From: Escherichia coli
GTDB lineage: Bacteria; Pseudomonadota; Gammaproteobacteria; Enterobacterales; Enterobacteriaceae
Assembly: GCF_016026235.1 (NCBI RefSeq)
Contig: NZ_CP065613.1
Reading direction: 5' to 3' (one strand)
Length of the DNA stretch: 64,000 bases
The notes beneath the pieces are model-generated. The model did no database searches and was not told where the DNA came from. It saw only the letters and a program-made list of their open reading frames with translations. The translations under genes were made by a program, and so were the position numbers. Position 1 is the first letter of the stretch, and the number at the start of each line of letters is the position of its first letter. Shown piece by piece: positions 32,895 to 34,451 of this stretch.

Positions 32895-34091
32895 TCAGAC
32901 AACTTCCTCACCGTAACGCATAGTGCTGGTACGGTTGCGCCCATCTTTCTTCGAGCGATACAGACACGTATCGGCTTCGACCATCAATTTATTAAAGTCA
33001 TCGGTCAGCGTTCGGTACGATGCGCGACCACTACCGACGCCAATACTTACCGTGAGATAAAGCGTTTTTTGTTGCCAGGTGAATGGTTGCAGTTCAACGC
33101 CTTTACGGATTTTTTCCGCCATTAGCAGACCATCGACAGGATTCACTGACGGCACTGCAACAGCAAATTCTTCGCCGCCCATGCGCGCCACCAGCCCCTT
33201 ATCACCGACAATCTTCTGAATATGCCGGGCAAACACGCTTAACACTTTATCGCCACATTCATGTCCATAGTTATCGTTAATACTTTTGAAATAGTCGATA
33301 TCAAGCAGCATGACAGTCAGATGTTGTGTCTGTTTAAGCGATGGACTTTTCAGCGCCTCATAAAGACCGGACCGTGAGTAAACCTGAGTCAGAAAATCAA
33401 AGTCGGCTCGCAGCGCAACTTGCTTCATTAGCGAATTGATCGCTGCCACGCTAAAAGAAACCATAATTGGGCATATCGCCATCGTGGCAATACCGAGACG
33501 TGCGGAGAACATTTCCGGAATGGAGAACGGCGAACCGACCGAGATATCAATCACCGAATTAGCCACCAGTACGATTTCCACCGCACCGGTGACAAAGGTC
33601 AACAGACATGTTACCTGCGGCGTATAGCGCACTGCACACCAGATTAATGCAGGCAGCGGGAACGCCAGACTCCCCGCTCCGCCAATGACTACCGAGGCAA
33701 TAACCGACACAATAAGCGCGATGGCGGGCATCATCTGTTCTGCTTTAAAGCGCGGCAGCACTCCAGGAATAGCCAACGTCAGCATACAAGGCACGATCAA
33801 CACGCCCGTTGAGAATTGCTCACTGAACCAGTCCGCAAGCAAAGGCCAGAAATCCAGACTATCAATACTGACCGAACCAATCGCTCCGACAATAGCGCAT
33901 AATAATGCGGCAATCAGACAGTAATTAAATAGCCGTAAGGCACTTACTGGCTCATACTTATTTTTCCCCAGACGCTTATCCCGCACGACCAGTAAGGCGA
34001 CGGTAACAATAAACATCATATTGGAGAAATTGATAGCCAGTGAAACCAGTCCCCATTCGGTGGTTATGACATCATAAACCAGCATCGCCAC
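32895..34091 (-). CDS. dgcF: membrane-anchored GGDEF diguanylate cyclase; an in-frame stop separates it from 62 further upstream codons (34125..34313)
   Basis: 398-aa ORF with GGEEF motif; upstream 62-aa ORF in the same frame is hydrophobic and separated by a single TGA. Confidence 0.7.
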   Translation of the reverse strand: MAMLVYDVITTEWGLVSLAINFSNMMFIVTVALLVVRDKRLGKNKYEPVSALRLFNYCLIAALLCAIVGAIGSVSIDSLDFWPLLADWFSEQFSTGVLIVPCMLTLAIPGVLPRFKAEQMMPAIALIVSVIASVVIGGAGSLAFPLPALIWCAVRYTPQVTCLLTFVTGAVEIVLVANSVIDISVGSPFSIPEMFSARLGIATMAICPIMVSFSVAAINSLMKQVALRADFDFLTQVYSRSGLYEALKSPSLKQTQHLTVMLLDIDYFKSINDNYGHECGDKVLSVFARHIQKIVGDKGLVARMGGEEFAVAVPSVNPVDGLLMAEKIRKGVELQPFTWQQKTLYLTVSIGVGSGRASYRTLTDDFNKLMVEADTCLYRSKKDGRNRTSTMRYGEEVV

Positions 34092-34451
34092 ATAACTGAT
34101 CGCATAGTAATGCAGTCGATTAAGTCAGACATAGCGGGCAAACACCCCCGCCATTACGCCATTCAGCGGCCAGAAAAGAGAAAGTTCGTGAACCAGCCGT
34201 AACTCTGCACCAATAAAATAGAACAGCGTGGTTAGCGCAAAAATAGCGATGCTATTACGTAGCAGATGACCTTCCTGGAACAAACGGAAAGTTGAAATGG
34301 GGTGTACATGCATTAATTATCTGTCCATACAATTGCGGGTGGCAATTATCTCAACGTAATAAGTAAATTCTCATAAAGGATAGCATGTTCGCTAACAGCG
34401 GCGGCAAATAAAGGTACCCTGGGAATGCTATTTTATCGTTTTCCGCAATTC

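What the first reader, a model, noticed from the sequence alone, without database searches (positions are those of the whole stretch)
32895..34313. Diguanylate cyclase gene dgcF preceded by 62 in-frame hydrophobic codons separated by a single stop
ORF 34125..34313 is in the same frame as the 398-aa GGDEF ORF and is separated only by TGA at about 34103. Together they would encode a longer membrane-sensor cyclase, so the gene may be nonsense-truncated, expressed from an internal start, or subject to readthrough.
Basis: seen in the sequence. Interest (0 to 1): 0.25.

Follow-up and report, generated by a model that had tools for sequence, protein, structure and literature searches.

The report
Nonsense-inactivated dgcF diguanylate cyclase pseudogene
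This is the E. coli diguanylate cyclase gene dgcF (yneF) broken by one Trp-to-stop point mutation at codon 63, an ordinary strain-lineage pseudogene that RefSeq already flags as "internal stop", not a recoding or regulatory device.

Summary
On the minus strand, 32895..34313 is one 472-codon frame with a single internal TGA. That stop lies at 34125-34127, not near 34103.

The frame is dgcF/yneF, in the conserved order sad-glsB-yneG-dgcF-uxaB. The stop is TGG(Trp63)->TGA, a G->A change at 34125.

- **Rarity:** at least 3,954 of 4,100 complete-genome E. coli records carry the exact TGG 61-mer. Only one, FDAARGOS_943, carries TGA, and PGAP marks its gene a pseudogene with an internal stop.
- **Orthologs:** those in E. 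fergusonii, Citrobacter, Enterobacter and Lelliottia start at the same upstream Met. They read through position 63 with W, Y or F.
- **Not a sequencing error:** the mutation occurs in several independent assemblies, on at least three haplotype backgrounds.
- **Recurrent loss:** other natural dgcF lesions exist (W87*, R66*, and the 498-bp K-12-type 5' deletion), so this gene is lost repeatedly.
- **No recoding signals:** there is no SECIS-like fold, no Rfam match, and no Shine-Dalgarno before GTG75 or ATG77.

Residual product remains possible, either by tRNA-Trp readthrough of UGA-C (which would restore the wild-type residue) or by reinitiation. Neither is shown. Verdict: an ordinary, already-annotated pseudogene of low interest.

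The parts
32895..34313 (-). dgcF (yneF) pseudogene: 472 codons plus terminal stop, with one internal TGA
   Evidence: Translation. The identical gene in FDAARGOS_943 is annotated 'sensor domain-containing diguanylate cyclase, pseudogene, internal stop'. The intact 472-aa allele is WP_000558032.1.
34128..34313 (-). 5' fragment of 62 codons, encoding the first two predicted membrane helices of the N-terminal sensor domain
   Evidence: ORF list. Helices 17-37 and 44-63 in the model. Residues 20-62 are among the best conserved in orthologs.
34125..34127 (-). Premature stop TGA = Trp63* (TGG->TGA, G->A at 34125); the next base is C (UGA-C)
   Evidence: Alignment to intact alleles. Codon mapping. 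Allele counts.
34092..34124 (-). 11 sense codons (LNRLHYYAISY) between the stop and the first in-frame start codon; ancestral coding sequence
32895..34091 (-). Downstream in-frame ORF: 398 aa from GTG 34091, or 396 aa from ATG 34085 as gene callers report it. It holds the remaining membrane helices and the GGDEF domain. No Shine-Dalgarno precedes either start.
   Evidence: Gene calls of 396 aa in public assemblies. Anti-SD duplex energies of +0.3 and -2.3 kcal/mol against a within-gene mean of -2.8.
32931..33407 (-). GGDEF (diguanylate cyclase) domain, residues 303-461 of the full-length frame
   Evidence: Pfam PF00990, E = 2.4e-40. TIGR00254. Confident part of the model, pLDDT about 80-87.
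33165..33179 (-). Intact active-site motif GGEEF (residues 379-383). No RxxD I-site five residues upstream.
   Evidence: Read from the sequence and translation. Agrees with Richter et al. 2014, PMC4287979.
34316..34374 (-). Two overlapping sigma-70-like promoter matches upstream of the ATG. These are consensus matches only.
   Evidence: One search found 5 matches in the region against 3.1 +/- 1.9 in shuffles, which is not significant.
33881..34378 (-). For comparison: the 498-bp segment (promoter region plus codons 1-144) that is deleted in K-12-type dgcF alleles but present here
   Evidence: BLAST of the K-12-like locus L004 against the window. 1,228 of 5,414 complete genomes with a match have no place covering 80% of the query, and the listed examples lack this 5' part. 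That allele is annotated 'dgcF, missing N-terminus'.

Best explanation
dgcF in this strain is a recently made pseudogene. A single G->A transition changed Trp63 (TGG) to TGA at the end of the second membrane helix of the roughly 300-residue N-terminal sensor domain. Ribosomes starting at the native ATG (34313) release a 62-residue two-helix peptide. The 396/398-codon remainder, including an intact GGEEF cyclase domain, has no ribosome-binding site of its own, so little or no cyclase is made.

The lesion belongs to a pattern of recurrent dgcF loss in E. coli and Shigella. It sits in a lineage whose close relative, FDAARGOS_943, is rich in IS elements and pseudogenes and carries a pINV-like plasmid.

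Shown: the mutation, its rarity, its reality, the intact ancestral state, and the absence of recoding or initiation signals. Inferred: loss of protein and of function.
For: - **Single internal stop:** codon 63; intact alleles have TGG at the same position.
- **Allele counts:** the exact TGA 61-mer is in 1 of 4,100 complete-genome records and the exact TGG 61-mer in 3,954.
- **Annotation:** PGAP marks the identical gene as a pseudogene with an internal stop.
- **Orthologs:** four other genera have uninterrupted 470-485-aa proteins from the same Met, with W/Y/F at position 63 and strong conservation of residues 20-62.
- **A real mutation:** the exact 62-aa product is on 38 contigs (index: 73 blocks), including NCBI records CAD7366495.1, STL95521.1, EIH9100543.1 and EPC9123751.1 and Logan runs ERR926423, SRR5330898, ERR3970836 and ERR9438756, each followed by a separately called 396-aa GGDEF ORF.
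- **Recurrent loss of this gene:** W63* occurs on at least 3 haplotypes. W87* (TGG->TGA) and R66* (CGA->TGA) alleles exist. The 498-bp K-12-type 5' deletion is widespread: 1,228 of 5,414 complete genomes with a match lack 80% coverage of the gene region. Literature states that K-12 dgcF is 5'-truncated and not expressed (PMC4287979; PMC5635695).
- **No Shine-Dalgarno** before GTG75 or ATG77.
- **Context of decay:** many IS elements and pseudogenes in the neighbourhood of the sister strain, and a pINV-like plasmid.
Against: - No expression data exist for this allele.
- The rest of the gene carries no further disabling mutations. Its GGEEF site is intact, and the only other rare substitution, A82V, also occurs in 10 genomes with intact genes. 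So the lesion is young, or the remainder is still under some constraint.
- Shigella DGC genes with nonsense mutations before the GGDEF domain still raised c-di-GMP when expressed, and gave bands matching internal starts or full length (PMC11327459).
- UGA is leaky in E. coli, about 2-4% in K-12 reporters through Trp-tRNA (PMC10570021). Readthrough here would restore the wild-type residue.
Confidence: 0.9

Rival explanations
1. The split gene still yields a working, N-terminally truncated cyclase. After terminating at UGA63, ribosomes reinitiate 33-39 nt downstream at GTG75 or ATG77. The product lacks helices 1-2 and half of helix 3 but keeps the GGDEF domain, giving a sensor-impaired, perhaps constitutive enzyme.
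For: - In-frame GTG and ATG lie 11 and 13 codons after the stop.
- Gene callers report a 396-aa ORF.
- The GGEEF site is intact.
- The even shorter 315-aa S. flexneri DgcF (P0019, aligning from residue 158) raises c-di-GMP when expressed from a plasmid (PMC11327459).
- Shigella dgcE, dgcQ, dgcN and dgcM nonsense alleles give products consistent with internal starts.
Against: - No Shine-Dalgarno: +0.3 and -2.3 kcal/mol, no better than the gene-wide background.
- The restart would fall mid-helix 3, leaving an odd number of helices and an uncertain topology.
- Native dgcF is already very weakly expressed (PMC4287979).
- The Shigella evidence comes from high-copy T7 expression, not native levels.
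- Nothing shows selection for this form.
Confidence: 0.07
2. Leaky-stop attenuation. UGA63 followed by C is read at low frequency by Trp-tRNA, which restores the wild-type residue. The allele would then be a strong knock-down rather than a null. Its recurrence as UGA on several backgrounds could reflect selection for down-tuning.
For: - The stop is UGA with C at +4.
- UGA readthrough by Trp-tRNA competing with RF2 is about 2% at 37 C and 4% at 25 C in K-12 reporters (PMC10570021).
- All four nonsense haplotype groups examined are TGA: W63* three times and W87* once.
- Ojha et al. saw full-length bands from Shigella dgcQ and dgcN nonsense alleles and proposed readthrough.
Against: - Basal leak is a general property of UGA, not a feature of this site.
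- There is no stimulatory structure (z = -0.79) and no Rfam match.
- Four TGA rather than TAG outcomes have a chance probability of about 1/16 and ignore mutation bias.
- From my own knowledge, the K-12 readthrough figures are inflated by its weak RF2 allele and are likely lower in wild strains.
- A few percent of an already very weakly expressed protein is probably negligible.
Confidence: 0.03
3. Programmed recoding: UGA63 encodes selenocysteine or is a conserved programmed readthrough site.
For: Only that the codon is UGA and the frame stays open beyond it.
Against: - The codon is TGG in at least 3,954 complete-genome records and W/Y/F in other genera.
- The 71 nt from the stop fold no better than shuffles: -16.3 against -14.1 +/- 2.8 kcal/mol.
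- No Rfam family matches at E <= 1.
- Position 63 lies in a membrane helix, not a redox site.
Confidence: 0.005
4. Sequencing or assembly error: the true genome has TGG.
For: The window differs from its closest complete relative by several small indels elsewhere, so one of the two assemblies could contain errors.
Against: - The change is a substitution, not a homopolymer indel.
- It is identical in FDAARGOS_943.
- It is identical in independent short-read assemblies from at least four runs and in four NCBI protein records.
Confidence: 0.005

Closest known systems
Full-length E. coli DgcF/YneF (472 aa; e.g. WP_000558032.1; described from O104:H4, 55989, EDL933 and CFT073)
   Same: Same locus and synteny (yneG-dgcF-uxaB). 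10 nucleotide differences over 1,419 nt from allele L002. Same roughly 300-residue hydrophobic N-domain with no Pfam family. Same GGEEF active site without an I-site (PMC4287979).
   Different: Codon 63 is TGA instead of TGG, so the frame is interrupted after two helices.
K-12 / S. flexneri 5'-truncated dgcF (315 aa annotated; RefSeq 'missing N-terminus')
   Same: Another natural inactivating lesion of the same gene that leaves the GGDEF domain intact. It shows dgcF is dispensable in many lineages (PMC5635695).
   Different: That lesion is a 498-bp deletion removing the promoter and codons 1-144. Here the promoter, start codon and every codon are present, and only one base differs.
Shigella flexneri degenerate DGC genes dgcE, dgcQ, dgcN and dgcM (nonsense codon before the GGDEF domain; Ojha et al. 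2024, PMC11327459)
   Same: The anatomy is the same: an early premature stop, a nearby in-frame Met, and an intact downstream GGDEF domain, in a Shigella/EIEC-type genome.
   Different: Those are different genes. Residual c-di-GMP synthesis was shown for dgcE, dgcQ and dgcN under over-expression. Nothing has been measured for this dgcF allele.
Other natural dgcF nonsense alleles (W87* TGG->TGA; R66* CGA->TGA)
   Same: Single-base UGA stops within the first 90 codons of the same gene, each followed by a separately called GGDEF ORF.
   Different: Different codons and different strain backgrounds.

Membership tests
DgcF/YneF diguanylate cyclase (orthologous gene) | Chromosomal position between yneG and uxaB | tested here: met
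   Window ORFs and the annotation of identical and near-identical loci show sad-glsB-yneG-dgcF-uxaB-yneE-tam.
DgcF/YneF diguanylate cyclase (orthologous gene) | C-terminal GGDEF domain with an intact GG(D/E)EF active site and no RxxD I-site | tested here: met
   PF00990, E = 1.7e-40. GGEEF at residues 379-383 with no RxxD upstream, read from the translation. Matches PMC4287979.
DgcF/YneF diguanylate cyclase (orthologous gene) | Roughly 300-residue multi-helix hydrophobic N-terminal domain unique to this protein | tested here: met
   About 10 predicted helices between residues 17 and 304. No Pfam family at E <= 0.1. The sequence is present in full at the DNA level.
DgcF/YneF diguanylate cyclase (orthologous gene) | Uninterrupted reading frame, i.e. 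a functional gene rather than a pseudogene | tested here: not met
   TGA at codon 63. RefSeq marks it a pseudogene with an internal stop. It is therefore filed as a dgcF pseudogene, not a functional member.
Programmed stop-codon recoding (selenocysteine or programmed readthrough) | The stop codon is conserved among homologs | tested here: not met
   The exact TGG 61-mer is in 3,954 of 4,100 records and the TGA 61-mer in 1. Other genera have W/Y/F.
Programmed stop-codon recoding (selenocysteine or programmed readthrough) | Stimulatory RNA structure (SECIS-like hairpin or pseudoknot) just 3' of the stop | tested here: not met
   The fold of 34060-34130 has z = -0.79 against shuffles. No Rfam match at E <= 1.
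Internal-start isoform (independent initiation site inside the gene) | Shine-Dalgarno or other initiation signal ahead of the internal start | tested here: not met
   Anti-SD duplex of +0.3 kcal/mol (GTG75) and -2.3 kcal/mol (ATG77), against a within-gene mean of -2.8 and a 5th percentile of -7.3.
Internal-start isoform (independent initiation site inside the gene) | Detectable protein product from the internal start | not testable with these tools
   Needs tagging, western blot or mass spectrometry in the W63* strain.

The most novel reading that the evidence does not exclude
The early UGA alleles of dgcF (W63* on at least three haplotypes, plus W87* and R66*) are not neutral decay. They would be recurrently selected 'dimmer' alleles. 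UGA-C is leaky and is misread by Trp-tRNA, which at codon 63 restores the wild-type protein. Such an allele would keep a few percent of DgcF, or a sensor-less restart product, while removing most c-di-GMP output. That could be a pathoadaptive tuning step in invasive or host-restricted E. coli.
Probability: 0.04. Interest if true: 0.4.

Novelty: already known. Interest (0 to 1): 0.08.

Why it matters
It matters little beyond correct annotation. This strain should be scored as lacking, or nearly lacking, DgcF, one of the weakly expressed, RpoS-dependent cyclases of the E. coli c-di-GMP network. The case adds one more allele to a documented pattern in which GGDEF genes, dgcF in particular, are repeatedly inactivated in K-12, Shigella and EIEC-like lineages. 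The one point of wider interest is that such nonsense pseudogenes may retain residual activity, as reported for other Shigella DGC genes. A pseudogene label should therefore not be taken as proof of a null phenotype.

Tried and rejected
- **Selenocysteine or programmed readthrough:** rejected. The stop is not conserved, there is no structure and no Rfam match.
- **Independent internal initiation:** no Shine-Dalgarno before any in-frame start within 40 codons of the stop. The native ATG also has only a weak one, at -3.0 kcal/mol.
- **Sequencing error:** rejected on multiple independent assemblies.
- **Post-inactivation decay:** I suspected A82V, at an otherwise invariant position, was a second lesion. 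It occurs in 11 complete genomes, 10 of them with intact genes, so it predates the stop or is independent of it.
- **Rho-dependent polarity after the stop:** a crude C/G scan shows a G-rich mRNA with no C-rich, G-poor stretch soon after codon 63. This is inconclusive and not used.
- **Family of the N-terminal domain:** no Pfam hit even at E <= 10, apart from a spurious 12.6-bit match. The AlphaFold model of the membrane part is low confidence (block-mean pLDDT 33-68, mean 60.5, pTM 0.38), so I used only its helix boundaries and ran no fold search.
- **Dcm (CCWGG) deamination hotspot:** inspecting the sequence around the mutated G shows no such site.
- **Promoter and terminator scan:** promoter-like matches are not above shuffles and no terminators were found.
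- **Povolotsky & Hengge 2016:** the comparative paper was not available in the library.

Full report
**What is there.** On the minus strand, window 32895..34313 is a single frame of 472 codons plus a terminal stop, interrupted once. The interruption is TGA at codon 63, window 34125-34127, and the next base is C. Upstream of it lies a 62-codon ORF starting at ATG 34313. After 11 further sense codons comes a mechanical ORF of 398 aa from GTG 34091; gene callers report 396 aa from ATG 34085.

**Identity.** The downstream ORF carries a full GGDEF domain: PF00990, E = 1.7e-40, and TIGR00254. Its GGEEF active site is intact and there is no RxxD I-site (read). The gene lies between yneG and uxaB, in the order sad-glsB-yneG-dgcF-uxaB-yneE-tam. 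K-12-type copies at this position are named dgcF in RefSeq. The uninterrupted 472-aa protein is named "Probable diguanylate cyclase DgcF" or "sensor domain-containing diguanylate cyclase". Richter et al. 2014 describe full-size YneF as having a hydrophobic N-terminal domain of about 300 residues found in no other E. coli protein, a GGDEF domain with an active site but no I-site, and very weak, mainly RpoS-dependent expression (PMC4287979). Consistent with that, the N-terminal 306 residues match no Pfam family. A low-confidence AlphaFold model gives about ten helices between residues 17 and 304, and a hydropathy scan detects seven strongly hydrophobic segments in that span.

**The stop is a derived point mutation.** Two intact alleles (EC6563 and 7_33_80A) are identical to the window across the first 250 nt of the gene except TGG in place of TGA and one further SNP. 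Across the whole gene the window differs from each at 10 positions, most of them synonymous.

- A 61-mer centred on the codon matches exactly in only one of 4,100 complete-genome records carrying this segment.
- The TGG version matches exactly in 3,954.
- The single TGA record is FDAARGOS_943.
- Orthologs of 470-485 aa in E. fergusonii, Citrobacter, Enterobacter and Lelliottia all begin at the same upstream Met and have W, Y or F at position 63.
- Residues 20-62 are among the most conserved parts of the membrane domain.

**It is real and not private to one genome.** The window is not FDAARGOS_943 itself. The two share 99.87-99.99% identity but differ by IS-associated rearrangements and several indels. 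The exact 62-aa product occurs on 38 contigs (index: 73 blocks), in four NCBI protein records and several Logan assemblies, always followed by a separately called 396-aa GGDEF ORF.

Two of these loci (ERR926423 and SRR5330898) match the window haplotype, with 0-2 mismatches in 6,189 nt. Two others (ERR3970836 and ERR9438756) differ at 140-148 positions overall and 9-11 within dgcF, yet carry the same TGA. Flanking informative sites place them on L003-like and L002-like haplotypes. Explaining this by recombination would require tracts shorter than about 300-730 nt. Recurrent mutation on at least three backgrounds is the simpler reading, though very short recombination tracts cannot be excluded.

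**dgcF is repeatedly lost.**

- Other N-terminal fragments in the same protein cluster proved to be further single-base nonsense alleles: W87* (TGG->TGA; index 119 blocks) and R66* (CGA->TGA; 54 blocks, at least two backgrounds).
- Of the 5,414 complete genomes with a match, 1,228 have no place covering 80% of the gene region. The listed examples of these show the K-12-type lesion.
- I mapped the K-12-type lesion as a 498-bp deletion of window 33881..34378, covering the promoter region and codons 1-144.
- The literature reports that this deletion abolishes expression in K-12 (PMC4287979; PMC5635695).
- glsB::dgcF fusion ORFs of 660-664 aa also occur in S. flexneri and E. coli.

**Genomic context.** In FDAARGOS_943 the surrounding 50 kb holds many pseudogenes and IS1/IS2 copies. 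Its 155-kb plasmid carries sepA, virK, capU, phoC, a fragment of a NEL-type E3 ligase, IS600 and ISSfl3. That is a Shigella/EIEC invasion-plasmid type of backbone, although I did not see the type III secretion genes in the 100 kb I read. Decay of c-di-GMP genes is documented for Shigella (PMC11327459).

**Could the gene still work?** I tested three routes.

1. *Recoding.* This is excluded: the stop is not conserved, the downstream 71 nt fold no better than shuffles (z = -0.79), and no Rfam family matches.
2. *Independent internal initiation.* Neither GTG75 nor ATG77 has a Shine-Dalgarno (+0.3 and -2.3 kcal/mol, against a gene-wide mean of -2.8). A restart there would fall in the middle of helix 3. 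Termination-reinitiation 33-39 nt after the stop remains mechanistically possible. A truncated protein could be catalytically competent, because the 315-aa S. flexneri DgcF raises c-di-GMP when expressed from a plasmid. Shigella dgcE, dgcQ and dgcN nonsense alleles also still produce c-di-GMP under over-expression.
3. *Basal readthrough.* UGA is decoded at about 2-4% by Trp-tRNA in K-12 reporters (PMC10570021). At this codon that would regenerate the wild-type residue. This is a general property of UGA rather than a feature of the site, and native dgcF expression is already very low.

None of these routes is supported by a sequence signal. They bound the residual activity rather than define a function.

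**Verdict.** This is an ordinary, lineage-restricted nonsense pseudogene of a known gene. RefSeq already flags it as such, and it fits a documented pattern of GGDEF-gene decay. Interest is low. The most novel reading I cannot exclude is that recurrent early UGA alleles are selected leaky knock-downs. I give that about 4%.

Noticed in passing
window 23484..25021 (lsrA) and 26043..27037 (lsrD): Relative to its close relative FDAARGOS_943, the window has +2 bp at 24335-24336 and +2 bp at 26867-26868. These split lsrA (ORFs 23484..24452 and 24377..25021) and lsrD (26043..26963 and 26675..27037). FDAARGOS_943 instead has a 1-bp deletion in lsrK, a deletion of about 9.2 kb between hipA and lsrK, and a 15-bp in-frame deletion in lsrC. 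The two sister strains have thus damaged the AI-2 uptake locus independently, unless some of the small indels are assembly errors.
   Followed up: partly
window about 4402..5675: An IS2 copy (ORFs 4402..4812 and 4770..5675, + strand) interrupts a fimbrial gene of the ydeQRST cluster, as annotated in FDAARGOS_943. The usher gene (7016..9667, 883 aa) is intact in the window but is truncated by IS1 in FDAARGOS_943.
   Followed up: partly
L010/L011 (NZ_CP065616.1, plasmid of FDAARGOS_943): The 155-kb plasmid of the closest complete relative has a Shigella/EIEC pINV-type backbone: sepA, virK, capU, phoC, a NEL E3-ligase fragment, a GNAT/DUF1778 toxin-antitoxin pair, IS600, ISSfl3, ISSso6 and F4-like fimbrial genes. 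No ipa/mxi/spa genes appeared in the first 100 kb read.
   Followed up: partly
L012 (SRR6788262); L014, L015, L016 (SRR11484361, ERR11813068, SRR31020023): Other natural dgcF alleles carry single-base UGA stops at W87 (TGG->TGA) and R66 (CGA->TGA), the latter on at least two divergent backgrounds. Every early nonsense allele examined is UGA.
   Followed up: yes
L008, L009 (ERR3970836, ERR9438756) against window 31125..37313: The same W63* TGA sits on haplotypes that differ from the window at 140-148 of 6,189 positions. This implies recurrent mutation or very short recombination tracts.
   Followed up: yes
P0051-P0055, P0081, P0096, P0099: ORFs of 571-664 aa combining a glutaminase (PF04960) domain and a GGDEF domain occur in S. 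flexneri and E. coli. They apparently arise from deletions fusing glsB to the 3' part of dgcF and removing yneG. Other chimeric ORFs join Aldedh (sad) or Mannitol_dh (uxaB) domains to GGDEF.
   Followed up: no
window 34316..34345: The best sigma-70-like match (TTGCCA-18-GATAAT, 10 of 12) ends 3 nt before the annotated ATG at 34313. A transcript from it would start inside the ORF. Either this is not the promoter or the mRNA is close to leaderless. The native start also has only a weak Shine-Dalgarno, at -3.0 kcal/mol.
   Followed up: no
window 16185..19917 (- strand): Two large adjoining ORFs (584 aa and 676 aa) overlap at 17887..17939, in the segment between hipA and lsrK that FDAARGOS_943 lacks. 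They look like one large gene split by a frameshift. I did not identify it.
   Followed up: no
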